NCBI RefSeq assembly: GCF_000027125.1
Contig: NC_017626.1
DNA length: 64,000 bases
Strand: one strand, 5' to 3'
Source: Escherichia coli 042
GTDB lineage: Bacteria; Pseudomonadota; Gammaproteobacteria; Enterobacterales; Enterobacteriaceae
The notes under the pieces are model-generated. The model saw nothing but the letters and a program-made list of their open reading frames with translations. It made no database searches and was not told the DNA's origin. Shown here piece after piece: positions 17,869 to 64,000 of this stretch (position 1 is its first letter; every line of letters begins with the position of its first letter). Position numbers and translations under genes: made by a program.

Positions 17869-18000
17869 ATACCTGTAAAAGGCGCTAAAAATAGCGACTT
17901 GGGCGATTTTTGCAGCAAACGATTCAAAAGATGAGAAAAACCGTTGACGAAGGGTGAGGCAATCCGTAATATTCGCCTCGTTCCCAACGGAACACAACGC

Positions 18001-18077
18001 GGAGCGGTAGTTCAGTCGGTTAGAATACCTGCCTGTCACGCAGGGGGTCGCGGGTTCGAGTCCCGTCCGTTCCGCCA
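18001..18077 (+). tRNA. aspV: tRNA-Asp (GTC), a known genomic-island integration hotspot
   Basis: Identical 77 nt sequence to the rrnH-distal tRNA-Asp; followed by a hairpin and T-run terminator around 18106..18137. Confidence 0.97.
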
Positions 18078-40557: not shown

Positions 40558-42516
40558 ATGTCCTTAAAAGGTCTGCGCTTTACGCTGGAGATTGACGGCC
40601 AGGAGCCGGACACCTTTGCAGTGGTGCATTTCAGGTTAATCCAGAACCAGTCTTATCCGTTTGTGATGAGTGTGGATGTTGCCAGCGACTCTTTTATGCA
40701 GACGGCGGAGATGCTGCTGGAGAAGAAGGCGACGCTGACCATCTGGCAGGGCGTCATCCCGCTGCGTTATGTCACCGGCGTGGTGGCGGGTTTTGGCATG
40801 CAGGAGAACAATGGCTGGCAGATGCGTTATCACCTGCGTATTGAGCCGCCGTTATGGCGGTGCGGGCTGCGGCAGAACTTCCGTATCTTCCAGCAGCAGG
40901 ATATCCGGACGATATCGGCCACGTTACTGAACGAGAACGGCGTCACGGAGTGGACACCGCTGTTTTATGAGGACCATCCGGCGCGGGAGTTCTGTGTCCA
41001 GTACGGGGAAAGCGACCTGGCGTTTCTGGCGCGGTTGTGGGCGGAGGAGGGAATTTTCTTCTTTGAGCGGTTTGCGGCGGACAGTCCGGAGCAGAAGCTG
41101 ACGCTGTGCGACGATGTGGCGGGGCTGTCACAGGCGGGAGAGCTTCCGTTTAACCCGGACACATCGGCAGGAGCGGAGACAGAGTGTGTCAGTATGTTCC
41201 GTTATGAGGCGTATGTCCGCCCGTCGTCGGTGCAGAGCCAGGATTACACGTTTAAGGTGCCGGACTGGCCGGGGATGTATGAGCAGCAGGGTGAGAACCT
41301 GAACGGACAGCTGGAGCAGTATGAGATATTTGATTATCCGGGAAGGTTCAAGGATGAACAGCACGGCAAGGATTTCACGCTGTACCAGATGGAGAGCCTG
41401 CGCAGTGATGCGGAAAAGGCCACAGGGCAGAGTAATTCACCGAAGCTGTGGCCGGGAACGCGGTTTACGCTGACGGGGCATCCGCAGAAGATGCTGAACC
41501 GTGAATGGCAGGTGGTACAGAGTATTCTGTCAGGGGACCAGCCGCAGGCGCTGCACGGCAGCCAGGGGAGAGGAACCACGCTGGGAAATCAGTTAGAGGT
41601 GATACCGGCGGACCGGACGTGGCGTCCACGGCTGCAAAGCAAACCGAAGGTGGACGGGCCACAGAGCGCCATTGTCACCGGTCCTGCGGGAGAGGAAATC
41701 TTCTGCGACGAACACGGACGTGTGCGAGTGCAGTTTCACTGGGACAGGTATAACCCGGCAACGGAGGCGAGTTCATGCTGGGTGAGGGTGTCGCAGGCGT
41801 GGGCGGGGCCGGGATTTGGTAACCTGGCGATACCGCGCATCGGCCAGGAAGTGATTGTAGACTTCCTGAACGGCGACCCGGACCAGCCGATAATCATGGG
41901 GCGGACGTACCATGAGGACAACCGTTCGCCGGGGAGTCTGCCGGGGACGAAGACGCAGATGACGATACGGTCGAAGACCTATAAAGGAAGCGGCTTTAAT
42001 GAACTGCGGTTCGAGGACGCGACGGACAAGGAAGAAATTTACCTGCACGCACAGAAAAATATGCAAGTCGTTGTGCTGAACAGCAAGGATAAGCGGGTCA
42101 ACTATGACCGGACGGTCAGCATCGGGCATGATGAATCCCTGGTGGTGGCAAATGACCGGAAAGTGACGGTTGAAGGTAAACAGGACCATAAAACCACCAA
42201 AGACCATGTCAGCCTGACAGAGGGCAATCAGGGGCTGGAGGTGAAAGGCGATCTGGCACAGAAAATAAGCGGCGCGCTGGGTATCAGCGTACAGGGCGAT
42301 ATTGTTTTACAGAGCGACAGCAAAATCAGTCTGCGGGTGGGCGGTTCATTTGTGGTGATCCATTCCGGCGGCGTGGATATTAAGGGCGCGAAAATCAATC
42401 TTAACGGCGGAGGCAGTCCGGGAGACGTGATCCTGCCGATGCGCCCGGTGATCCTGAAAGCCGCAGCCGGAAGCGGGACAATGTTTGTGGCGCACTGCCC
42501 GAAGGAGGATAAGTGA
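40558..42516 (+). CDS. vgrG: T6SS spike protein VgrG (TssI)
   Basis: 652 aa; gp27-like N-terminus, gp5-like OB fold and repeat region; no obvious C-terminal effector extension. Confidence 0.92.
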   Translation: MSLKGLRFTLEIDGQEPDTFAVVHFRLIQNQSYPFVMSVDVASDSFMQTAEMLLEKKATLTIWQGVIPLRYVTGVVAGFGMQENNGWQMRYHLRIEPPLWRCGLRQNFRIFQQQDIRTISATLLNENGVTEWTPLFYEDHPAREFCVQYGESDLAFLARLWAEEGIFFFERFAADSPEQKLTLCDDVAGLSQAGELPFNPDTSAGAETECVSMFRYEAYVRPSSVQSQDYTFKVPDWPGMYEQQGENLNGQLEQYEIFDYPGRFKDEQHGKDFTLYQMESLRSDAEKATGQSNSPKLWPGTRFTLTGHPQKMLNREWQVVQSILSGDQPQALHGSQGRGTTLGNQLEVIPADRTWRPRLQSKPKVDGPQSAIVTGPAGEEIFCDEHGRVRVQFHWDRYNPATEASSCWVRVSQAWAGPGFGNLAIPRIGQEVIVDFLNGDPDQPIIMGRTYHEDNRSPGSLPGTKTQMTIRSKTYKGSGFNELRFEDATDKEEIYLHAQKNMQVVVLNSKDKRVNYDRTVSIGHDESLVVANDRKVTVEGKQDHKTTKDHVSLTEGNQGLEVKGDLAQKISGALGISVQGDIVLQSDSKISLRVGGSFVVIHSGGVDIKGAKINLNGGGSPGDVILPMRPVILKAAAGSGTMFVAHCPKEDK

Positions 42517-46337: not shown

Positions 46338-47262
46338 ATGGAACATATTTCTGTTATTCCCGATTACAGACAAGCCTGGAAAGTGGAACATAAATTGTCG
46401 GATATTCTACTGTTGACTATTTGTGCCGTTATTTCGGGTGCAGAAGGTTGGGAAGATATAGAGGATTTTGGGGAAACACATCTCGATTTTTTAAAACAAT
46501 ACGGTGATTTTGAAAATGGTATTCCTGTTCACGATACCATCGCCAGAGTTGTATCCTGTATCAGTCCTGCAAAATTTCACGAGTGCTTTATTAACTGGAT
46601 GCGAGATTGCCATACTTCAGATGATAAAGACGTCATCGCAATTGATGGAAAAACGCTCCGGCACTCTTATGACAAGAGTCGCCGCAGGGGAGCGATTCAT
46701 GTCATTAGTGCGTTCTCAACAATGCACAGCCTGGTCATCGGACAGATCAAGACGGATGAGAAATCCAATGAGATTACAGCTATCCCAGAACTTCTTAACA
46801 TGCTGGATATTAAAGGAAAAATCATCACAACTGATGCGATGGGTTGCCAGAAAGATATTGCAGAGAAGATACAAAAACAGGGCGGTGATTATTTATTCGC
46901 TGTAAAAGGAAATCAGGGGCGGCTTAATAAAGCCTTTGAGGAAAAATTCCCACTGAAAGAATTAAATAATCCAGAGCATGACAGTTACGCAATGAGTGAA
47001 AAGAGTCACGGCAGAGAAGAAATCCGTCTTCATATTGTTTGCGATGTCCCTGATGAACTTATTGATTTCACGTTTGAATGGAAAGGACTGAAGAAATTAT
47101 GCGTGGCAGTCTCCTTTCGGTCCATAATAGCAGAACAAAAGAAAGAGCCAGAAATGACGGTCAGATATTATATCAGTTCTGCTGATTTAACCGCAGAGAA
47201 GTTCGCCACAGCAATCCGAAACCACTGGCACGTGGAGAATAAGCTGCACTGGCGTCTGGACG
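46338..47262 (+). CDS. ISAs1-family transposase (H-repeat-associated protein), exon 1 of intron-interrupted gene
   Basis: Matches the intact copy at 49523..50659 up to ...[14 protein letters not shown] 1 nt shorter A-run than in copy 2 removes the MELKKL leader, so the start shifts to the ATG at 46338. The ORF-track tail [10 protein letters not shown] is intron-encoded read-through. Confidence 0.75.
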
Positions 47263-49153
47263 GTGTGCCGCAGGAACACAAGATAGCTGCATAAGGATAC
47301 GCAGTTAGCTTTTGTATAAGCTCATAAAGAGATGGTGGAAGGCCCACCGGGATCGGCTGTCGGAAGCAGATTCCAAACCACTTCATGCTGCTGTGGTAAA
47401 GAGCCATGGTAGTGAGCGATGAAGTAAAGCGTGAGTGAAAACTCAGCAGGTAAGATACTCATGAGACGAGTGAACCCGAACCCATGTTGACGCGTCGTAA
47501 ACCAGAGACTGACATCAAAACCGAAGGGGCGTCCAGCCTTCGGGATAAGTCTGCGAGTGAATTCCGAATGCTGCGCAGACGGTGTCCGGCGTAAAGTGGG
47601 CGTGACGGAGTATCAGGCTCTTCCTGGGAACTGCGGGAACCTGTCGTTGTGATGATAAGGGAGAAATGCAAGTCACTGAATTGGCGAGCATGAAAGTACC
47701 GATGCACAGCACAGGGACGGAGCCGTTCGTAGTAGTGATGAAGCTTCTGTAATGGAGGTGGAGCGAAGGGGCGGCATCAGACAGTCTTTGGACAGTGTTC
47801 AACTGAACATGTTCAGGAGGAGACAATGACAAAGACAAAAGCGTTTAACATTGATAAGTCACTGGTGGTCAGCGCGTACAGGCGAGTGAAGACCAGTGCA
47901 GGCGCGGCGGGAATTGATAAGCAATCGCTGGCGGACTTTGATAAACGGTTAGTTGATAATCTGTACAAAATCTGGAACCGACTTTCTTCAGGAAGTTATT
48001 TCCCACCGGCAGTGAAAGCGGTGGCAATTCCGAAGAAATTGGGTGGAGAGAGAATTCTGGGTATCCCGACAGTCAGCGATCGTATCGCGCAGACGGTGGT
48101 AAAACTGGCCTTTGAGCCACAGGTTGAGCCACATTTTCTGGCAGACTCTTACGGCTACAGACCGAATAAATCGGCACTGGATGCTATAGGGGTAACGCGT
48201 AAGCGTTGCTGGTATTACGACTGGGTACTGGAATTTGACATCAAAGGGCTGTTCGATAACATCCCGCACGAACTGATAATGAAAGCCGTGGACAAACACA
48301 ATCCGGCCCGGTGGGTAAAATTGTATATACAGCGGTGGCTGACAGCGCCGATGGTGATGTCAGACGGAGAAGTCAGAGCACGAACAATGGGAACGCCGCA
48401 GGGAGGTGTCATAAGTCCGTTGCTGGCAAACCTGTTCATGCATTATGTGTTTGATAAATGGCTGGCAAAATATTATCCGAAAGTGCCGTGGTATCGATAT
48501 GCTGATGATGGCATTTTGCATTGTCACAGCGAAGCAGAAGCGACTGAAATGCGAGAAGTATTACGCAAAAGATTTAGCGAATGCGGACTGGAAATGCATC
48601 CGGAGAAAACGCGAGTTATCTACTGCAAAGATGGAAGCCGGAAGGGTGATTATGAACATACCATGTTCGACTTTCTGGGGTACACATTCAGGCGACGCGT
48701 AGTAAAGAACGTTAAGCGAAACAGTCTGTTTGTAAGTTTTACCCCCGCAGCGAGCAAATCAGCGCTAAAGGCAATGCGTCGGGAAATCAAAGCGACAGGG
48801 ATAAGGAAAAGAGTGGATTTAAGCATTGAGCAGATAGCGAAATGGATAAATCCAAAACTGAATGGCTGGATAAATTATTACGGGCGATATACCTGTTCGG
48901 AATTATACAGCGTGTTCAGATATATCAATAAAGCACTGGTGAGGTGGGGGCGTAAGAAATATAAAATGCTCAGCCGATACAAGACAAGAGCCTCAAAATT
49001 TCTGGAAGAAATGGCGAAGCGAAGTCCACAGTTGTTTGCCCACTGGCGTCTGAAGATGAGAGGCGGACTTGTTTGATGGGAGCGGTATGAGCCGAGAGGT
49101 TCACGTACCGTTCTGCGAGAGGCTGCGGGGGAGGTTCCTGCGGCCTACTCACC
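47263..49153 (+). mobile_element. Group II intron (about 1.9 kb) inserted in the transposase gene
   Basis: Insert begins GTGTG (GUGYG consensus), contains the RT/maturase ORF in the position of domain IV, has a domain V-like hairpin (GAGCGGTATGAGCCGAGAGGTTCACGTACCGTTC, about 49080..49114) and ends just before the exon 2 sequence seen in the intact copy. Boundaries are good to about 1 nt. Confidence 0.8.
47826..49076 (+). CDS. Group II intron-encoded reverse transcriptase/maturase
   Basis: 416 aa; RT motifs including YADD ([11 protein letters not shown]) and a C-terminal maturase (domain X) region. Confidence 0.88.
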
Positions 49154-49347
49154 TGGTAATGAATGAAGACGACTGCAAAATAAGAAGAGGAAATGCAGCA
49201 GAATTATTTTCAGGGATACGGCACATCGCTATTAATATTTTGACGAATGATAAGGTATTCAAGGCAGGGTTAAGACGTAAGATGCGAAAAGCAGCCATGG
49301 ACAGAAACTATCTGGCGTCAGTCCTTGCGGGGTGCGGGCTTTCGTAA
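49154..49347 (+). CDS. ISAs1-family transposase, exon 2 (C-terminal 64 codons)
   Basis: Encodes [63 protein letters not shown], nearly identical to the C-terminus of the intact copy; joins exon 1 in frame. Confidence 0.75.
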
Positions 49348-49378: not shown

Positions 49379-50669
49379 CAGGGAAAGATCATCAGAAGTA
49401 CACTTTTTGTACTAAACAATTCGCATTTTATGTTTAAAAATTGAGATATTCCTCATTACCTGAAGCTGTTTTTTATTGCTTATACATGATCAAATACTCC
49501 TTACATAATTAAGGAGAACAAAATGGAACTTAAAAAATTGATGGAGCATATTTCTATTATCCCCGATTACAGACAAGCCTGGAAAGTGGAACATAAATTA
49601 TCGGATATTCTACTGTTGACTATTTGTGCCGTTATTTCTGGTGCAGAAGGTTGGGAAGATATAGAGGATTTTGGGGAAACACATCTCGATTTTTTGAAGC
49701 AATATGGTGATTTTGATAATGGTATTCCTGTTCACGATACCATTGCCAGAGTTGTATCCTGTATCAGTCCTGCAAAATTTCACGAGTGCTTTATTAACTG
49801 GATGCGTGACTGCCATTCTTCAGATGATAAAGACGTCATTGCAATTGATGGAAAAACGCTCCGACACTCTTATGACAAGAGTCGCCGCAGGGGAGCGATT
49901 CATGTCATTAGTGCGTTCTCAACAATGCACAGCCTGGTCATCGGACAGATCAGGACGGATGAGAAATCTAATGAGATTACAGCTATCCCTGAACTTATTA
50001 ACATGCTGGATATTAAAGGAAAAATCATCACAACTGATGCGATGGGTTGCCAGAAAGATATTGCAGAGAAGATACAAAAACAGGGAGGTGATTATTTATT
50101 CGCTGTAAAAGGAAACCAGGGGCGGCTAAATAAAGCCTTCGAGGAAAAATTTCTGCTGAAAGAATTAAATAATCCAGAGCATGACAGTTACGCAATTAGT
50201 GAAAAGAGTCACGGCAGAGAAGAAATCCGTCTTCACATTGTTTGCGATGTCCCTGATGAACTTATTGATTTCACGTTTGAATGGAAAGGTCTGAAGAAAT
50301 TATGCGTGGCAGTCTCCTTTCGGTCAATAATAGCAGAACAAAAGAAAGAGCCCCAAATGACGGTCAGATATTATATCAGTTCTGCTGATTTAACCGCAGA
50401 GAAGTTCGCCACAGCAATCCGAAACCACTGGCACGTGGAGAATAAGCTGCACTGGCGTCTGGACGTGGTAATGAATGAAGACGACTGCAAAATAAGAAGA
50501 GGAAACGCAGCAGAATTATTTTCAGGGATACGGCACATTGCTATTAATATTTTGACGAATGATAAGGTATTCAAGGCAGGGTTAAGACGTAAGATGCGAA
50601 AAGCAGCCATGGACAGAAACTACCTGGCGTCAGTCCTTGCGGGGAGCGGGCTTTCGTAATCTTGCCCTG
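49379..50669 (+). mobile_element. ISAs1-family (H-repeat) insertion sequence, copy 2 (intact), in tandem 21 bp after copy 1
   Basis: Inverted repeats CAGGGAAAGATCATC and TTCGTAATCTTGCCCTG at the ends; 1291 bp. Confidence 0.8.
49523..50659 (+). CDS. ISAs1-family transposase (H-repeat-associated protein), intact
   Basis: 378 aa, [50 protein letters not shown]...; DDE-type H-repeat transposase. Confidence 0.88.
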
Positions 50670-56256: not shown

Positions 56257-56835
56257 ATGTACCAGGATCTTATTCGTAACGAACTGAACGAAGCGGCGGA
56301 AACGCTGGCTAACTTTTTAAAAGATGACGCCAATATTCACGCCATTCAGCGCGCGGCGGTCCTGTTAGCAGACAGCTTTAAAGCTGGTGGCAAAGTGCTT
56401 TCCTGCGGCAACGGCGGCTCCCATTGCGACGCTATGCACTTTGCCGAAGAGTTGACCGGTCGCTACCGTGAAAACCGTCCGGGCTACCCGGCGATTGCCA
56501 TTTCCGACGTTAGTCATATTTCCTGCGTCGGTAACGATTTTGGTTTCAATGATATTTTCTCCCGTTACGTTGAAGCGGTAGGTCGCGAAGGCGATGTACT
56601 GCTGGGGATCTCCACCTCAGGTAACTCTGCAAACGTGATCAAAGCGATCGCGGCGGCGCGTGAGAAGGGGATGAAAGTGATCACCCTGACCGGTAAAGAC
56701 GGCGGTAAAATGGCTGGCACAGCGGATATCGAAATTCGCGTACCGCACTTTGGTTATGCCGACCGCATTCAGGAGATCCACATTAAAGTGATCCATATCC
56801 TGATCCAGTTAATTGAAAAAGAGATGGTTAAGTAA
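56257..56835 (+). CDS. gmhA: Phosphoheptose isomerase GmhA (LpcA)
   Basis: The ORF-track start at 56095 is an over-extension; the protein begins [24 protein letters not shown] (192 aa) with a SIS domain. Confidence 0.92.
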
Positions 56836-57040: not shown

Positions 57041-57808
57041 ATGTGCGAATTGCTCGGGATGAGCGCCAACGTCCCTACCGATATCTGCTTTAGTTTCACC
57101 GGGCTTGTACAGCGTGGTGGTGGAACCGGGCCACATAAAGATGGCTGGGGCATCACCTTTTACGAAGGTAAAGGCTGTCGCACATTTAAAGATCCACAAC
57201 CCAGCTTTAATTCCCCCATCGCCAAACTTGTCCAGGACTACCCGATAAAATCCTGTTCGGTTGTGGCTCATATTCGGCAGGCCAATCGGGGCGAGGTGGC
57301 GCTGGAAAATACTCACCCGTTTACCCGCGAGTTATGGGGACGCAACTGGACTTATGCCCATAACGGGCAACTGACGGGCTACAAATCACTGGAAACCGGC
57401 AACTTCCGCCCGGTCGGTGAAACCGATAGCGAAAAAGCCTTTTGCTGGCTCCTGCATAAATTAACGCAGCGTTACCCGCGCACACCGGGCAACATGGCGG
57501 CAGTGTTTAAATATATCGCCTCACTGGCGGATGAACTGCGGCAGAAGGGCGTTTTCAACATGCTGCTTTCAGACGGGCGCTATGTAATGGCGTATTGCTC
57601 GACTAATTTACACTGGATCACCCGCCGCGCGCCGTTTGGCGTGGCAACGTTGCTGGATCAGGATGTGGAAATCGACTTCAGCTCGCAGACCACACCTAAT
57701 GATGTGGTCACGGTGATTGCGACACAGCCGCTGACGGGCAATGAAACCTGGCAAAAGATTATGCCAGGCGAATGGCGCTTATTTTGCCTCGGGGAGCGTG
57801 TAGTTTGA
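57041..57808 (+). CDS. yafJ: Class II glutamine amidotransferase-like protein YafJ
   Basis: 255 aa from [19 protein letters not shown] (N-terminal nucleophile Cys after the initiator Met); convergent 30 bp overlap with yafK. Confidence 0.88.
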
Positions 57809-58519
57809 TGCCAGCTGTGGTTGCACAACTTCGTGGCTTAACGGCTTGCTGACCACGTAACGGCCATTGACCACAGAAACGGTCGGTGGCTTACGGGTTT
57901 GCTCAAAGTAGTCGTAGCCCGGTTTCAGTTGCTCCCAGAAGTCCTTAAAGTTGGAATACTTATGGCGCTTCATATTAGCGTCGGTCATACGGAACGGGTA
58001 AATACTCACTTGCACGCTCGGCTGACCAAACACCAGCGCACCAGTAACGAACTGGAAGATCTCATCAATACCCTGATTGGTCATCGCGTAGCAGCCGATG
58101 GAAACACAATCGCCGTGGATCATCAGGTATTTCCCTTCATAACCATGCGCACGGTCATAGGCATTGGGGAATCCAATATTAATCGCTTTGTAGTAACGGC
58201 TGTCTGGTTTTAACTGATTACGCTGGACGCTATAAAACCCTTCCGGGCTTTTGAAATCGCCCTGACGCTGTTTTGGTCCTAAGCCGCCGGAATATTTACA
58301 GATTTTATAGCTGTCGAGCAGTTGATATTGCTCGCCCATTTTGACGTAGAGATCGAGCGTACGTTCTTCCTTGAAGATCTGGATGTAGACAGGGGATCCC
58401 ATCAACTGCTGCTTATACTCTTTGCTCACTGGCGTGGTCGAGCTACTGCTGCCCAGCAAACCGGCAAACGAAACGCACGGGATCAACAACATCGCAAGAA
58501 TTAATGCGATTTTACGCAT
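57779..58519 (-). CDS. yafK: L,D-transpeptidase-like periplasmic protein YafK (YkuD domain)
   Basis: 246 aa, signal peptide, catalytic motif HGDCVSIGC. Confidence 0.9.
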
Positions 58520-58810
58520 ACTGCTTATTCCTTGATAAAACGGTTACACACGCCAGGACGGCAAAATGGATCCCAAATCGGAATAGTCTGGATTTGGAAG
58601 GCTCACATTATCACCAAAAGAGTTTTACGCAAGCCTGTCGGCGCAGGGTTTACAAATTTAGCACAGGGGCAGTTTTCATTAGTCCGAAAAGCGCATGTAT
58701 CATTTATTTCCTAAGATTATGAAACCTCAATAGTAATATGCAAATAAGCAATTAATAATCCCGTTTACTCCTCCGGTCTTTTAAAATTCTCCCCTTCATT
58801 CAGCCGGTTT

Positions 58811-59569
58811 ATGTCCTTCATGTCTTCGTTCTTTCACGGCAGATTTCTGCATCCAGGCGTGTTTTCGTTATGCGTTTTGCTCCCTTTACTCGCCAGCGCC
58901 ACCACATCACATATCTCTTTCAGCTACGCCGCCCGCCAGCGGATGCAAAACCGTGCGCGTTTATTAAAACAGTACCAAACCCATCTGAAAAAACAGGCCA
59001 GCTATATTGTGGAAGGCAATGCCGAAAGCAGAAAGGCGCTGCGCCAGCACAACCGCGAACAGATAAAACAGCATCCAGAATGGTTTCCTGCGCCGCTCAA
59101 GGCGAGTGACAGACGCTGGCAGGCGCTGGCGGAGAACAACCATTTCTTAAGCAGCGACCATCTGCACAACATCACCGAAGTGGCGATTCACCGCCTGGAG
59201 CAGCAGCTTGGTAAGCCTTACGTCTGGGGCGGCACGCGGCCCGATCAAGGCTTCGACTGTAGCGGGTTGGTTTTTTATGCCTACAACAAGATCCTCGAGG
59301 CGAAGCTCCCGCGCACGGCCAATGAGATGTATCACTACCATCGGGCAACGATTGTGGCGAATAACGACCTGCGCCGGGGAGATTTGCTGTTTTTCCATAT
59401 TCACAGCCGTGAGATTGCCGATCATATGGGCGTGTATCTGGGAGACGGTCAGTTTATCGAGTCGCCGCGCACCGGGGAAACCATTCGGGTAAGTCGGTTA
59501 GCTGAACCTTTCTGGCAGGATCATTTTTTAGGCGCGCGCAGGATTTTGACGGAAGAGACGATTTTGTAG
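58811..59569 (+). CDS. yafL: NlpC/P60-family peptidase lipoprotein YafL
   Basis: 252 aa; NlpC/P60 catalytic region (DCSGLVFYAY with catalytic Cys, downstream His). Confidence 0.88.
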   Translation: MSFMSSFFHGRFLHPGVFSLCVLLPLLASATTSHISFSYAARQRMQNRARLLKQYQTHLKKQASYIVEGNAESRKALRQHNREQIKQHPEWFPAPLKASDRRWQALAENNHFLSSDHLHNITEVAIHRLEQQLGKPYVWGGTRPDQGFDCSGLVFYAYNKILEAKLPRTANEMYHYHRATIVANNDLRRGDLLFFHIHSREIADHMGVYLGDGQFIESPRTGETIRVSRLAEPFWQDHFLGARRILTEETIL

Positions 59570-59650
59570 GACGGATAAGGCGTTCACGCCGCATCCGGCA
59601 ATAGTGCACCGATGCCTGATGCGACGCTGCCGCGTCTTATCATGCCTACG
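59570..59650. repeat. REP pair (BIME) downstream of yafL
   Basis: GGACGGATAAGGCGTTCACGCCGCATCCGGCA and GATGCCTGATGCGACGCTGCCGCGTCTTATCATGCCTAC. Confidence 0.85.
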
Positions 59651-59745
59651 AGTCTGCGAATTTTTTGCGAGCTGCTTTCCCGATATAACACAACTTCATT
59701 GTCGACTTTTCCTTTTCTTCTTATCGTTGAGAAAAAGGAGTCGCC

Positions 59746-60243
59746 ATGTCTGAATATCGTCGTTATTACATCAAGGGGGGAACATGGTTTTTCACGGTAC
59801 ATTTACGGAATCGTCGAAGCCAACTTTTGACCACCCAGTACCAGACACTCCGTAACGCCATTATTAAAGTTAAGCAGGCCAGACCTTTTGAAATTAACGC
59901 CTGGGTAGTTTTGCCAGAGCATATGCACTGTATCTGGACATTACCCGAAAGTGATGATGATTTTTCCTCTCGCTGGCGGGAGATTAAAAAGCAGTTCACC
60001 CATGCTTGCGGATTGAAAAATATCTGGCAACCGCGTTTTTGGGAGCATGCCATTCGCAATACAAAAGATTATCGCCATCATGTTGATTATATTTATATAA
60101 ATCCAGTGAAACATGGCTGGGTAAAGCAGGTGAGTGATTGGCCATTCTCAACGTTCCATCGCGATGTAGCGCGAGGGTTATATCCCATTGATTGGGCGGG
60201 AGACATAACGGATTTTAGTGCCGGGGAGCGTATTATTTTATAA
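59746..60243 (+). CDS. rayT: REP-associated tyrosine transposase RayT (YafM; HUH Y1 transposase)
   Basis: 165 aa with HUH motif (HMHCIW) and C-terminal catalytic Tyr region; flanked on both sides by REP sequences. Confidence 0.9.
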   Translation: MSEYRRYYIKGGTWFFTVHLRNRRSQLLTTQYQTLRNAIIKVKQARPFEINAWVVLPEHMHCIWTLPESDDDFSSRWREIKKQFTHACGLKNIWQPRFWEHAIRNTKDYRHHVDYIYINPVKHGWVKQVSDWPFSTFHRDVARGLYPIDWAGDITDFSAGERIIL

Positions 60244-60665
60244 TTGTGCGCGGATGCCTGATGCGACGCAGGCGCGTCTTATCATGCCTACAAACTTGTG
60301 CCGGATCGGTGGGCCGGATAAGGCGTTCACACCGCATCCGGCAATTGTGCACCGGTGCCTGATGCGACGCTGGCGCGTCTTATCATGCCTACAAACCTGT
60401 GCCGGATCGGTGGGCCGGATAAGGCGTTCACACCGCATCCGGTAATTGTGCACCGGTGCCTGATGCGACGCTGGCGCGTCTTATCATGCCTACAAACCTG
60501 TGCCGGATCGGTGGGCTGGATAAGGCGTTCACACCGCATCCGGCAATTGTGCGCAGATGCCTGATGCGACGCTGACGCGTCTTATCATGCCTACAAACTT
60601 GTGCCGGATCGGTAGGCCGGATAAGGCGTTCACGCCGCATCCGGCAATTGTGCACCGATGCCGGA
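60244..60665. repeat. Tandem REP/BIME array of about four 101 bp units downstream of rayT
   Basis: TGCCTGATGCGACGC recurs at about 60255, 60357, 60458 and 60559 (101 to 102 bp period); each unit holds two REP palindromes in opposite orientation. Confidence 0.88.
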
Positions 60666-60681
60666 TTCGCCCCAAAGGCCA

Positions 60682-62775
60682 TCAACTCAACGCCCCCATA
60701 ATCTTCAACTCCAGCTCATCCGGCACTTCGTTATACGACAGCACATGCAGACCCGGCGCAAACAACCTTGCATAACGCGCCAGCAAAGGACGCAGCTGCG
60801 GCGGCACCAGCAGCACAGGGGCTTTCCCCGCTGCTTTCATCTGCTCCTTCACCTGCGGCATCGTACTCTGGAACTGGTTGAGCATATTCGGGTCAACCGG
60901 CACGCTGTCGAGCATCACTTTGCCGGCCTGTTGCGCCTGATTCACCACATTGGTCAGCAGATTTTCCAGCTCATTATTCAGCGTATACACCGTCAGCTCC
61001 TGTTTGCGAACGAACGGATGGGTAATGCTGCGCCGCAGCGCCAGGCGCACATCGGCCGCCAGCAGAATATGATCTTTGGTCAATGTGCTACTGGCGACCA
61101 GCACAGTGGCGATGGTGACGATATCGCGCAGGGAAACGCCTTCGGTCAGTAATGCACGGTACACTTTCAGCAACTGGCTGTAATTGAGCGCTGCGCTCAA
61201 ATCTTCCGCCAGTCGCGGTGCCATCGACGACAAACGATTATGCAACTGCGTAATATCGTCATAGTTAAATAAATCAGGAATATAGCTGCGCACAATCTTA
61301 TTCACATGGGTGGCAATCACGCTGGCGCTGTCGATCACCTGATACCCCATATTCAGCGCCTTCGCTTTCTGCGCGGGCTGGATCCAGGTCACCGGCATCC
61401 CGTACGCCGGGTCGTTCCCCAGCACGCCGTCAATCTCGCCGTAGGTTTCGCTGGAGGGCAGGGCCATCAGTTTATCCGCCGGAATATCCGCTTCATCAGC
61501 CTTAATGCCATTGATGAAAATGGCGTACTGGCTGGGCTTGAGGCGGAAGTTTTCCCGAATACGGATCTCCGGCAGCAGCACGCCGTTGCCGTCGGAAATC
61601 ACCTGCCGCACGCCGCGAATCCGCTGGGTGAGCGGGTTACCTTGGGCTTTATCGACTAGCGCCACCAGCTTGTAGCCGAGGCTTAAGCTGATGGGCTCGA
61701 TCAGCGGAATGGTTTCCCAACTGACCTGTTGCTCGCTGGTTTCGGTGATGGTTCGGGTCAGCGTTTCGAGGCTTTTCTCCTCCGCCTCCGCCGCCTGCGG
61801 GCGTTTGCTCATCCGCCAGCCGGTAAAGCCAAGCAGGGCGCTGAACAGCAAAAATGGCAGATGCGGCATCCCCGGCACCACCGCCAGCACAAACATGATC
61901 CCGGTGGCGGTGTAGAGCACCGACGGGCTTGCCAGCAGCTGGTGGCGCACGTCATGGGCGATATCGCCGTTGTCGCTGACGCGGGTGACGATAATTGCCG
62001 CTGCGGTGGAGAGCAGCAGGGACGGGATCTGCGCCACCAGCCCGTCGCCGATGGTCATCAGCACATACTGCTGGAAGGCGGCGTCGGCGCTCAGGTTGTA
62101 TTTGAAGATGCCGATACAGACGCCGCCGATCAGGTTGATCGCCAGAATCATCATCCCGGCGATGGCGTCCCCGCGCACAAACTTCGATGCCCCGTCCATC
62201 GCGCCGTAGAAATCGGCCTCGCTGGCAACATCTTTACGCCGGGTTTGCGCCTGCGCCTGGTTGATCAACCCAGCGTTAAGATCGGCGTCAATCGCCATCT
62301 GTTTACCGGGCATCGCGTCTAAGGTAAAGCGGGCAGAAACCTCGGAAATACGCTCGGCCCCTTTGGTGACGACGATAAAGTTGATGATCATCAGGATGAT
62401 AAACACCACAAAGCCGACGACAAAGTTGCCGCCAATCACCACCTGACCAAATGACTCAATTACCTTACCCGCCGCGCCCGCGCCGAGATGCCCGTGCAGC
62501 AACACCACGCGCGTAGAAGCAACGTTGAGCGTCAGGCGCATTAAGGTGGTGATCAGCAAAATGGTCGGGAACAGGCTGAATTCCAGCGGCCTTTTCGCTG
62601 ACACCGCCACCAGCAGTACCATCACCGCCAGCACAATGTTGAAGGTGAACAGAATATCCAGCAGCGCAGGCGGCAGCGGCAAAATAACCATCGCCAGAAT
62701 ACACAGGATCACCAGCGGCACGCCGAGATTGCCGCCGCGCAGTAGCGCGAGGAACGATTTAGTTGTTTTCGCCAT
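60682..62775 (-). CDS. lfhA: Flagellar type III export apparatus protein FlhA paralog (Flag-2 locus)
   Basis: 697 aa full-length FlhA-family protein (N-terminal transmembrane domain, FHIPEP region, cytoplasmic C-terminal domain); located next to rayT where the Flag-2 cluster begins. Confidence 0.85.
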   Translation of the reverse strand: MAKTTKSFLALLRGGNLGVPLVILCILAMVILPLPPALLDILFTFNIVLAVMVLLVAVSAKRPLEFSLFPTILLITTLMRLTLNVASTRVVLLHGHLGAGAAGKVIESFGQVVIGGNFVVGFVVFIILMIINFIVVTKGAERISEVSARFTLDAMPGKQMAIDADLNAGLINQAQAQTRRKDVASEADFYGAMDGASKFVRGDAIAGMMILAINLIGGVCIGIFKYNLSADAAFQQYVLMTIGDGLVAQIPSLLLSTAAAIIVTRVSDNGDIAHDVRHQLLASPSVLYTATGIMFVLAVVPGMPHLPFLLFSALLGFTGWRMSKRPQAAEAEEKSLETLTRTITETSEQQVSWETIPLIEPISLSLGYKLVALVDKAQGNPLTQRIRGVRQVISDGNGVLLPEIRIRENFRLKPSQYAIFINGIKADEADIPADKLMALPSSETYGEIDGVLGNDPAYGMPVTWIQPAQKAKALNMGYQVIDSASVIATHVNKIVRSYIPDLFNYDDITQLHNRLSSMAPRLAEDLSAALNYSQLLKVYRALLTEGVSLRDIVTIATVLVASSTLTKDHILLAADVRLALRRSITHPFVRKQELTVYTLNNELENLLTNVVNQAQQAGKVMLDSVPVDPNMLNQFQSTMPQVKEQMKAAGKAPVLLVPPQLRPLLARYARLFAPGLHVLSYNEVPDELELKIMGALS

Positions 62776-63898
62776 CCAGTTTAAGCACCTCTTTGGGAAT
62801 GGAAATATGTCTGTTCAGGGCCGGGCGCGGCTGTGCACCATCGCGCCAGTGTTTCATTTGCAGGACGTAGGTCAGAACGTGGGCGATAGCCCGGTAAAGC
62901 TGAAAAGGAATTTGCTGATTCACCTGAGTGGTGTAGTAAACCGAGCGCGCCAGCCGCGGGAACTCGACCACTTCCACCTGACTTTCAGCAGCGACCTGGC
63001 GAATATAGAGGGCGATTTCATCGGTGCCTTTCGCCACCACAAACGGCGCGGCGGCACGCGACTGGTCATACTGCAACGCCACGGCGTAGTGGGTCGGGTT
63101 GGTGATCACCACGTTGGCCTTTGGCACCACTTTGCGAATTTGCCCCATCGCCAGTTGCCGTTGCAGCCGCCGCACGCGCGCCTTCACTTCCGGCTTGCCT
63201 TCCTGATTTTTGTACTCTTCTTTCAGTTTTTGTTTGGTCATCTTCAGCCCTTTGGTGAACAGGGCTTTCGCCAGCGGCACGTCGAGAAGCGCAAAGAAAA
63301 TAAACAGGATGACAAAGTTGCGCATCACGCTGGCGTAGAGCGACAAACCGTCATTCATCGCCAGTTTGAACGGCAGCGCCTGCAGGCCGAGAAAGGCGGC
63401 AAAGTTATTGCGCAGGCTTACCCACAGCATCACCAGCACCACGGCAGACTTCACCGTCATCTTTCCCGTTTCCGCCAGATGTTCACTGGAAAACAGCCGC
63501 CTAATCCCTTTTAACGGACTGATTTTGCTGAAATCCGGGAGGATTTTTTTCGGCAGAAACAGCCAGCCGCCGGGCACCAGTGAGGAGAGCAGCGCGGCGG
63601 CGGGCATTGGCAGCAAGGTAAGAATAAACTTGCCGAGAATTAACAGGTGATGGCGCAGAAACTGGCCGATAGCGTCCGGGTTATTAATCTCCTGCGCGTA
63701 CTGATGCACGCTGATAAAACTCTCGCGCACAAAATCGGCATACCACGGGAAGCTGCTGGAGATCACCACAAACGCCGCAAACAGGCTCGCCGCCAGCCCC
63801 ATATCCTTCGAGCGCGGCAGTTGCCCCTCTTCACGCGCTTTACGCAGCTTTTGCGCCGAGGGTTTCTCTGTTTTTTCTTCGCTGCTGCTATCCGCCAT
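62759..63898 (-). CDS. lfhB: Flagellar export apparatus protein FlhB paralog (Flag-2 locus)
   Basis: 379 aa FlhB-family protein with NPTH autocleavage motif (VITNPTHYAVAL); overlaps lfhA by 17 bp. Confidence 0.85.
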   Translation of the reverse strand: MADSSSEEKTEKPSAQKLRKAREEGQLPRSKDMGLAASLFAAFVVISSSFPWYADFVRESFISVHQYAQEINNPDAIGQFLRHHLLILGKFILTLLPMPAAALLSSLVPGGWLFLPKKILPDFSKISPLKGIRRLFSSEHLAETGKMTVKSAVVLVMLWVSLRNNFAAFLGLQALPFKLAMNDGLSLYASVMRNFVILFIFFALLDVPLAKALFTKGLKMTKQKLKEEYKNQEGKPEVKARVRRLQRQLAMGQIRKVVPKANVVITNPTHYAVALQYDQSRAAAPFVVAKGTDEIALYIRQVAAESQVEVVEFPRLARSVYYTTQVNQQIPFQLYRAIAHVLTYVLQMKHWRDGAQPRPALNRHISIPKEVLKLDGENN

Positions 63899-64000
63899 AG
63901 TGACCTTTCAGCGCGTCGAGTTGTTGCAGGACAAAATTCGCCAGATGCAGATAGTGATCCGGCAGGTTGTAAAGCAGGGTGGCAAAGCAGACCAGCCCCA
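63888..64000 (-). CDS. lfiR: C-terminal end of the upstream export-apparatus gene, probably a FliR paralog (partial, start beyond window end)
   Basis: Open frame ...GLVCFATLLYNLPDHYLHLANFVLQQLDALKGHYGG ending in TAG and overlapping the lfhB start by 11 bp; assignment rests on synteny only. Confidence 0.45.
   Translation of the reverse strand, partial: GLVCFATLLYNLPDHYLHLANFVLQQLDALKGHYGG

What the first reader, a model, noticed from the sequence alone, without database searches (positions are those of the whole stretch)
58520..58810. No dinJ-yafQ toxin-antitoxin module between yafK and yafL
Only 291 bp separate yafK and yafL. In the K-12 gene order as I recall it (yafK, yafQ, dinJ, yafL), this gap holds the dinJ-yafQ type II toxin-antitoxin pair. 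The intergenic sequence here has no RelE-like or RHH-antitoxin ORF, so this is a presence/absence polymorphism of a TA system at a conserved locus.
Basis: partly seen in the sequence, partly recalled or inferred. Interest (0 to 1): 0.35.

Follow-up and report, generated by a model that had tools for sequence, protein, structure and literature searches.

The report
Empty dinJ-yafQ site between yafK and yafL
This E. coli strain has no DinJ-YafQ toxin-antitoxin pair between yafK (dpaA) and yafL, where K-12 carries it; this is a common, already published difference between E. coli lineages, and the empty form seen here looks like the original one.

Summary
In the window, yafK/dpaA (57779-58519, -) and yafL (58811 or the RefSeq start 58820, to 59569, +) lie 291 or 300 bp apart. 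No DinJ- or YafQ-like sequence is present in the gap or anywhere in the 64 kb. K-12 does have dpaA-yafQ-dinJ-yafL at this place.

The difference is a block replacement, not a clean insertion or deletion. Window 58660-58883 (224 bp) stands where K-12 has 830 bp: yafQ, dinJ, their promoter, the region upstream of yafL and the first 64 nt of yafL, which encode its signal peptide.

Among 5,426 complete E. coli genomes, 2,084 carry the 224-bp empty form. A sensitive DNA search finds dinJ-yafQ-like DNA in 3,342. The two numbers add up to exactly 5,426.

E. albertii and two other non-coli Escherichia carry a homologous empty form. Citrobacter species that have yafL also have yafK and yafL adjacent with no toxin-antitoxin pair. 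The window therefore most likely shows the ancestral, never-occupied site, and the K-12 form is an imported block.

The lineage distribution is already published (present in the E/B1/A lineage and in phylogroup F; PMC6896753). This is ordinary and of low interest.

The parts
57779..58519 (-). yafK (dpaA), a peptidoglycan meso-DAP protein amidase. It is the left flank, shared by both forms.
   Evidence: 246-aa ORF. Pfam YkuD, 2.9e-8. Annotated dpaA in the identical genome A10. About 98% identical to K-12.
58520..58659 (-). dpaA promoter and leader block of 140 nt. It is identical in K-12 and conserved across Enterobacteriaceae. The left junction of the polymorphism lies at 58659/58660.
   Evidence: Window and K-12 are collinear up to 58659. 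This part of the gap matches more than 70 species at 70-96%. It holds invariant motifs (TTGTAAAC, CTTGCG, TAATGTGAGC, TTGCC, TTTATCAAGG) but shows no covariation for a structure.
58660..58883 (+). Escherichia-type segment of 224 bp specific to the empty form. It comprises the region upstream of yafL (58660-58810) and the signal-peptide codons of yafL (58811-58883). K-12 has 830 bp here instead (yafQ, dinJ, their promoter, a foreign yafL upstream region and a foreign 5' end of yafL).
   Evidence: No similarity to the K-12 830 bp (blastn-short; Smith-Waterman z = 0.3). Present in 2,084 of 5,426 E. coli genomes. Matches E. albertii at 76%, Escherichia sp. E1V33 at 81% and L004 at 78%, with z of 80 or more.
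58811..59569 (+). yafL, an NlpC/P60 (C40) peptidase. The RefSeq start is 58820. It is the right flank and is collinear with K-12 from 58884 onward.
   Evidence: 252-aa ORF. Pfam NLPC_P60, 3.2e-33. Window 58884-59700 matches K-12 at 92.7%. The predicted mature N-terminus after ...ASA|TTSH is the same in both forms.

Best explanation
The window carries the ancestral, unoccupied Escherichia-type yafK-yafL intergenic region. It consists of the conserved dpaA promoter and leader (58520-58659), followed by the native yafL upstream region and signal-peptide codons (58660-58883).

The K-12 form is the derived one. An 830-bp foreign block entered the lineage of phylogroups A, B1, C and E, and also phylogroup F. 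The block holds yafQ, dinJ, the dinJ promoter, a foreign yafL upstream region and a foreign yafL signal-peptide coding start. Its junctions lie just beyond the dpaA promoter on one side and at the signal-peptide cleavage region of yafL on the other. It has since moved between backgrounds by homologous recombination in the flanks.

The consequence for this strain is that it lacks the ribosome-dependent mRNA interferase YafQ and its antitoxin and repressor DinJ, and yafL is expressed from its native promoter with its native signal peptide.

Shown here: the absence, the junctions, the population frequencies and the state in outgroups. Inferred: the direction of the event, the foreign origin of the K-12 block, and the recombinational spread.
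For: - Junctions: window 57700-58659 equals K-12 at 98.2% and window 58884-59700 equals K-12 at 92.7%. In between, 224 bp stands against 830 bp with no similarity.
- Frequencies: the empty form is in 2,084 genomes. The 830-bp K-12 block is in 3,340 genomes. Any dinJ-yafQ-like DNA down to about 65-70% identity is in 3,342 of 5,426 genomes. 2,084 + 3,342 = 5,426, which is what is expected if genomes with the empty form have no copy elsewhere.
- Outgroups: L004, L005 and L006 (E. albertii) are 93-96% identical to the window across gmhA-yafJ-yafK, against 98% for E. coli K-12 and B2. All three have yafK and yafL adjacent, with an intergenic region and yafL 5' end homologous to the window's 224 bp.
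- Ten Citrobacter or Phytobacter species that have yafL place it directly beside yafK with no DinJ or YafQ.
- The K-12 dinJ-yafL spacer plus yafL 5' end has no similarity to the Escherichia type (z = 0.3) but significant similarity to the yafL upstream region of C. amalonaticus S646 (z = 13; 48-nt blast match at 81%).
- Relatives of the toxin-antitoxin pair at about 68% DNA identity sit on roughly 40-kb enterobacterial plasmids.
- Strain SCU-301 has the toxin-antitoxin block with the same junctions inside window-like flanks (0-2 mismatches per 100 bp over the first 500 bp of yafL beyond the junction).
- Literature: yafQ-dinJ is scored as a gain in the E/B1/A lineage and in phylogroup F, with phylogroup D used as the reference (PMC6896753).
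Against: - One non-coli Escherichia (L007, Escherichia sp. MOD1-EC7003) carries the toxin-antitoxin form. Its spacer and yafL 5' end are 93% identical to K-12, about the same as its flanks (89-92%). The toxin-antitoxin form may therefore be old within the genus, and the polarity rests on parsimony over only four non-coli Escherichia plus Citrobacter.
- No donor genome with dinJ-yafQ next to yafL was found outside Escherichia among the 80 loci examined.
- The similarity to Citrobacter rests on one species.
- The phylogroup of the source strain was not determined.
- Its whole genome was not searched directly; only the window and the population counts were.
Confidence: 0.85

Rival explanations
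1. Secondary loss: the ancestor of this strain had dinJ-yafQ at this site and deleted it.
For: - The toxin-antitoxin form is the majority form in E. coli (about 62%).
- It also occurs in one non-coli Escherichia (L007).
- Rare degraded forms exist: an IS1 insertion in strain 167 (H56), a 59-bp remnant in PSS-11 (H80) and a mosaic gap in BS-01.
Against: - A deletion cannot create the 224 bp that stands in place of the block. That segment is homologous to the same region of E. albertii and two other Escherichia (76-81%, z of 80 or more).
- It encodes a signal peptide like theirs.
- No toxin-antitoxin remnant is present.
- Loss would therefore have to be a precise back-replacement by recombination with an empty form. 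That still makes the sequence seen here the ancestral type.
Confidence: 0.08
2. The gap is not empty. It encodes a diverged toxin-antitoxin pair, another small protein or a small RNA that takes the place of dinJ-yafQ.
For: - Two ORFs of 72 and 60 aa overlap the gap.
- A block of about 60 nt (roughly 58697-58757) is nearly invariant among Escherichia species.
- That block contains a promoter-like site on the - strand (58744-58716).
Against: - The two ORFs overlap each other in different frames and begin inside or next to the dpaA start and its conserved leader. They have no Pfam or PADLOC match.
- tblastn with DinJ and YafQ finds only noise.
- There is no Rfam family above noise.
- The conserved block is about 60-120 nt upstream of yafL, where its promoter and operator would be expected.
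Confidence: 0.04
3. The absence is an assembly or sampling artefact of this one sequence.
For: None found.
Against: The same 224-bp segment occurs in 2,084 complete genomes, 189 of them at 99% identity or more. The 25 kb around it are 100% identical to a closed chromosome, strain A10.
Confidence: 0.01

Closest known systems
The dinJ-yafQ locus of E. coli K-12 (b0226/b0225), a type II toxin-antitoxin pair with a RelB/DinJ antitoxin and a YafQ ribosome-dependent mRNA interferase
   Same: Same chromosomal neighbourhood and same flanking genes: gmhA-yafJ-dpaA on the left and yafL-rayT on the right. The flanks are collinear at 98% and 93% identity.
   Different: The window has neither gene. It carries a 224-bp Escherichia-type yafL upstream region and signal-peptide segment where K-12 has the 830-bp block.
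The published lineage-specific distribution of yafQ-dinJ in E. coli (PMC6896753; also PMC10790755, PMC4128348; Fiedoruk et al. 2015 is cited in PMC11869752 but was not read here)
   Same: The window is an example of the yafQ-dinJ-negative class that those studies report: D, G and B2 lack the pair, while the E/B1/A lineage and F have it. My counts, 38% empty and 62% occupied among 5,426 complete genomes, fit that picture.
   Different: As far as I read them, those papers score gene presence and absence. They do not describe the junctions, the linked swap of the yafL promoter and signal peptide, or the state of the site in E. albertii and Citrobacter.
Plasmid-borne RelB/DinJ-YafQ family pairs of Enterobacteriaceae
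   Same: They are about 68% identical in DNA to the K-12 yafQ-dinJ genes and lie on roughly 40-kb plasmids of Citrobacter, Klebsiella, Enterobacter and E. coli. This shows the pair belongs to a mobile gene pool, which is consistent with gain.
   Different: They have no similarity to anything in the window's gap. They also do not cover the yafL-proximal part of the K-12 block; the matches end at about position 616 of 830.

Membership tests
DinJ-YafQ / RelBE-type type II toxin-antitoxin module | A toxin ORF of about 90 aa with the YafQ/RelE fold (Pfam YafQ_toxin PF15738 or a RelE family) | tested here: not met
   K-12 YafQ hits PF15738 at 1.6e-31 as a positive control. The gap ORFs hit nothing. 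tblastn with YafQ gives a best E of 0.41 in the gap and 0.86 in the window.
DinJ-YafQ / RelBE-type type II toxin-antitoxin module | An antitoxin ORF of about 85 aa with a ribbon-helix-helix RelB/DinJ domain (PF04221), immediately upstream of the toxin and on the same strand | tested here: not met
   K-12 DinJ hits PF04221 at 1.3e-34 as a positive control. The gap ORFs hit nothing. tblastn with DinJ gives a best E of 8 in the gap.
DinJ-YafQ / RelBE-type type II toxin-antitoxin module | Two small adjacent or slightly overlapping genes on the same strand, forming one operon with their own promoter | tested here: not met
   The only ORFs of 20 aa or more in 58530-58805 are a 37-aa, a 72-aa and a 60-aa ORF on the + strand and a 20-aa ORF on the - strand. 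The 72- and 60-aa ORFs overlap almost entirely in different frames and run across the dpaA start or its conserved leader. PADLOC finds nothing.
Empty (unoccupied) form of a presence/absence polymorphism | Members of the same species carry the element at the same site between collinear flanks | tested here: met
   K-12 and 3,340 other genomes have yafQ-dinJ between dpaA and yafL, with shared junctions at window 58659/58660 and 58883/58884.
Empty (unoccupied) form of a presence/absence polymorphism | The empty-site sequence is continuous and homologous to the same site in outgroup species, so it is not a deletion scar | tested here: met
   The 224-bp segment aligns with E. albertii, Escherichia sp. 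E1V33 and L004 at 76-81%, with z of 80 or more. Citrobacter species that have yafL place it next to yafK without a toxin-antitoxin pair.
Empty (unoccupied) form of a presence/absence polymorphism | The element is absent from the rest of the same genome, so it has not simply moved | tested here: inconclusive
   Only the 64-kb window could be searched directly, and that was negative. Indirectly, 3,342 genomes have any dinJ-yafQ-like DNA and 2,084 have the empty form, which adds up to exactly 5,426. This implies that empty-form genomes lack it everywhere at about 65% DNA identity or more.

The most novel reading that the evidence does not exclude
The two forms are not simply 'toxin-antitoxin pair present' and 'toxin-antitoxin pair absent'. 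They are two old haplotypes that couple the pair to a foreign yafL promoter and signal peptide. The toxin-antitoxin operon is also placed so that it reads towards the dpaA promoter.

On this reading, the polymorphism changes the expression or export of two peptidoglycan-remodelling enzymes (YafL and DpaA). It has persisted across Escherichia species boundaries (it is present in Escherichia sp. MOD1-EC7003), perhaps as a balanced or recombination-shuffled polymorphism.

The structural part, a foreign block that includes the 5' end of yafL, is supported here. The functional and selective parts are untested.
Probability: 0.15. Interest if true: 0.3.

Novelty: already known. Interest (0 to 1): 0.08.

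Why it matters
It matters little. Absence of dinJ-yafQ from non-A/B1/E lineages of E. coli is documented, and the window is a routine example.

The one useful detail for annotation and for comparing toxin-antitoxin content between strains is that the polymorphism is a block replacement. It also swaps the yafL upstream region and signal-peptide codons. K-12 results on yafL regulation, and on read-through from dinJ-yafQ into dpaA, should therefore not be carried over to strains with the empty form.

Tried and rejected
- **Remnants of the pair:** I looked for diverged remnants with tblastn using DinJ and YafQ (word size 2, E up to 100) on the gap and on the whole window. Only noise came back. blastn-short of the 224 bp against the K-12 830 bp gave only chance words of 9 nt or less.
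- **Gap ORFs:** Pfam and PADLOC scans of the gap ORFs found nothing.
- **RNA families:** an Rfam E-value scan of 58300-59000 gave one meaningless microRNA match at E = 0.24.
- **Mobile-element signatures:** a repeat search around the K-12 block and around the window's gap found no terminal inverted repeats or target-site duplication at the junctions. I rejected a transposon-like insertion.
- **Structured leader:** I tested whether the conserved 140-nt region upstream of dpaA is a structured RNA. RNAalifold on 15 genera gave 16 weak pairs, no compensatory changes and -6.45 kcal/mol. I rejected a structure; it reads as a promoter plus leader.
- **Donor of the K-12 block:** none of the 76 non-Escherichia loci recovered with YafK has DinJ or YafQ within 5 kb. 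Plasmid relatives are only about 68% identical and lack the yafL-proximal part. No donor was identified.
- **Paper search:** the first search failed on a term that was too short and was repeated.

Full report
**What is in the window**

The window is E. coli chromosome. Positions 39001-64000 are 100% identical to the closed genome of strain A10 (CP028764.1), and positions 1-39332 are 99.76% identical to the adjoining part of that genome.

The annotated order around the finding is as follows.

| Gene | Window coordinates | Strand |
|---|---|---|
| gmhA/lpcA | 56257-56835 | + |
| yafJ | 57041-57808 | + |
| dpaA (yafK) | 57779-58519 | - |
| yafL | 58820-59569 (RefSeq start; the ORF's first ATG is at 58811) | + |
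| rayT | 59746-60243 | + |
| REP array | after rayT | |
| lateral-flagellar flhA (intact) | 60682-62775 | - |

The later ATG is the one conserved in other Escherichia, where the upstream ATG is ATA. Pfam confirms the flanking genes: YkuD for YafK and NlpC/P60 for YafL.

**Is the toxin-antitoxin pair absent?**

Yes.

In the window's gap there are only four ORFs of 20 aa or more. The two longest (72 and 60 aa, + strand) overlap each other in different frames and run across the dpaA start or its leader. Neither has a Pfam or PADLOC match, whereas K-12 YafQ and DinJ, run as positive controls, hit YafQ_toxin (1.6e-31) and RelB (1.3e-34). tblastn with DinJ and YafQ gives only noise in the gap (best E = 0.41) and in all 64 kb (best E = 0.86). 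Rfam finds nothing real.

**Anatomy of the difference**

blastn against K-12 gives two collinear blocks:
- Window 57700-58659 matches K-12 at 98.2%.
- Window 58884-59700 matches K-12 at 92.7%.

Between them, the window has 224 bp (58660-58883) and K-12 has 830 bp. The K-12 block holds yafQ, dinJ, the dinJ promoter region, 209 bp upstream of yafL and the first 64 nt of yafL.

The two inserts share no similarity: only chance words of 9 nt or less, and a Smith-Waterman z of 0.3.

The left junction lies 5 nt beyond an invariant TTGTAAAC motif at the outer edge of the conserved dpaA promoter and leader block. The right junction lies at the codons for ...ASA|TTSH. The two forms therefore encode different signal peptides: MSFMSSFFHGRFLHPGVFSLCVLLPLLASA in the window and MSLPSIPSFVLSGLLLICLPFSSFASA in K-12. 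The mature N-terminus is the same (the cleavage site is inferred from the AXA rule and was not tested).

No terminal repeats or target-site duplications mark the K-12 block.

**Population frequency**

- The 224-bp segment is found in 2,084 of 5,426 complete E. coli genomes, almost always as a single chromosomal copy under yafL.
- The K-12 830-bp block is found in 3,340 genomes.
- A sensitive blastn with only yafQ-dinJ finds any related DNA in 3,342 genomes, and only three records fall in the 60-80% identity band.

2,084 + 3,342 = 5,426. The two forms are in effect mutually exclusive and together cover all genomes, and empty-form genomes do not keep a copy elsewhere at about 65% DNA identity or more. 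This is indirect evidence for the source genome of the window, which could not be searched as a whole.

From the hit lists, K-12, BL21, O157:H7, O104:H4, O113:H21 and O26:H11 carry the pair. APEC O1:K1:H7 and the strain MNCRE44 do not. My placing of these strains in A/B1/E against B2 comes from general knowledge.

**Which state is ancestral?**

A scan of one genome per GTDB species with YafK returned 80 loci. Four are non-coli Escherichia, 92-96% identical to the window across gmhA-yafJ-yafK. K-12 and a B2 strain are 98% identical over the same stretch.

Three of the four have yafK and yafL adjacent: E. albertii, Escherichia sp. E1V33, and a record labelled E. coli SCPM-O-B-8794. Their intergenic region and yafL 5' end are homologous to the window's 224 bp at 76-81% (z of 80 or more), and they encode the same type of signal peptide. 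Ten Citrobacter or Phytobacter species that have yafL also place it directly beside yafK without DinJ or YafQ. The other genera lack yafL altogether and have dinB or other genes there.

The K-12 dinJ-yafL spacer plus yafL 5' end has no similarity to the Escherichia type. It has significant similarity to the yafL upstream region of Citrobacter amalonaticus S646 (z = 13; a 48-nt match at 81%) and weak similarity to other Citrobacter (z about 3). Relatives of the pair itself occur at about 68% DNA identity on roughly 40-kb enterobacterial plasmids.

The simplest reading is that the window shows the native, never-occupied Escherichia site. The K-12 form would then be a foreign block that brought the toxin-antitoxin pair together with a foreign yafL promoter and signal-peptide start.

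**Spread and age of the toxin-antitoxin form**

Strain SCU-301 carries the block, 97.1% identical to K-12 and with the same junctions, inside flanks that are window-like. It shows 0-2 mismatches per 100 bp over the first 500 bp of yafL beyond the junction, against 1-7 for K-12. This fits transfer of the block between backgrounds by homologous recombination.

One non-coli Escherichia (sp. MOD1-EC7003, L007) also carries it. Its yafQ-dinJ is 98.7% identical to K-12, its spacer and yafL 5' end 93%, and its flanks 89-92%. The toxin-antitoxin form may therefore be old within the genus. This is the main caveat on the polarity, which rests on parsimony over few outgroups.

A rare third, mosaic form of the gap exists in strain BS-01.

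**Comparison with what is known**

The lineage distribution is published. yafQ-dinJ is reported as present in all genomes of the E/B1/A lineage and, within the F/G/B2 lineage, only in phylogroup F, and it is scored as a gain against a phylogroup-D reference (PMC6896753). YafQ is reported as highly prevalent in sequence types of phylogroups A, B1 and F (PMC10790755). yafQ-dinJ expression was seen only in isolates clustering with A/B1 (PMC4128348).

The finding is therefore a correct observation of a known, common polymorphism. The junction structure and the linked swap of the yafL 5' end are small additions and not a new kind of system.

**Verdict**

- Novelty: already known.
- Interest: low (0.08).
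- The most novel reading still open is that these are two old haplotypes that also rewire yafL and dpaA expression or export. It is untested. I give it about 0.15 probability and modest interest (0.3) if true.

Noticed in passing
window 58520-58659 (- strand): The 140 nt upstream of dpaA (yafK) are unusually conserved for non-coding DNA: 70-96% identical across more than 70 species of Enterobacteriaceae. They hold invariant motifs (TTGTAAAC, CTTGCG, TAATGTGAGC, TTGCC, TTTATCAAGG just before the ATG). They read as a conserved promoter plus a leader of about 90 nt. RNAalifold found no covariation and there is no Rfam family. The K-12 toxin-antitoxin block ends 5 nt beyond the TTGTAAAC motif.
   Followed up: partly
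window 58697-58757: A block of about 60 nt upstream of yafL (TTATTTCCTAAGATTATGAAACC...TAATATGCAAATAAGCAATTAATAATCC) is nearly invariant among E. coli D- and B2-type forms, E. albertii and two other Escherichia, while the sequence around it diverges. It contains a promoter-like site on the - strand (58744-58716). It is probably the yafL operator and promoter or a distal dpaA promoter. It is missing from K-12-type genomes.
   Followed up: no
L007 4031-4860 (Escherichia sp. MOD1-EC7003): A non-coli Escherichia whose flanks are only 89-92% identical to K-12 carries yafQ-dinJ at 98.7% identity at the same site. This points either to strong purifying selection on an old insertion or to exchange of the block between species.
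   Followed up: partly
L086 2347-2633 (E. coli BS-01): A third, rare form of the yafK-yafL gap. It is mostly of the empty type, but it starts with the K-12-like bases 'CA' at the left junction and has a different yafL start region (yafL annotated as 756 bp). It may be a recombinant or the scar of a toxin-antitoxin loss.
   Followed up: no
window 60682-64000: The lateral-flagellar (Flag-2) cluster begins here with an intact 697-aa FlhA/LfhA and FlhB. In K-12, lfhA and lafU are pseudogene remnants of a deletion. The identical genome A10 continues with fliR, fliQ, fliP, fliN, fliM and further flagellar genes.
   Followed up: partly
window 59570-59745 and 60218-60680: rayT (59746-60243), the REP-associated tyrosine transposase, is flanked by REP/BIME repeats. 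The downstream array is long: repeated pseudo-ORFs translate to MPDATLARLIMPTNL... In some sister genomes IS1397 and ISEc31 have inserted on either side of rayT (L002).
   Followed up: no
window about 46338-49347: An ISAs1-family transposase gene is split into two fragments by a group II intron carrying ltrA (about 47826-49076). A complete ISEc1 copy lies next to it (about 49523-50659). The coordinates are transferred from the annotation of the identical genome A10.
   Followed up: no
window about 18000-52100: A type VI secretion island (tssB to tssM, two hcp genes, a truncated vgrG at about 40558-42459, and DUF4123 effector genes) lies between tRNA-Asp (aspV, about 18000-18075) and yafV. K-12 has no type VI secretion genes here.
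   Followed up: no
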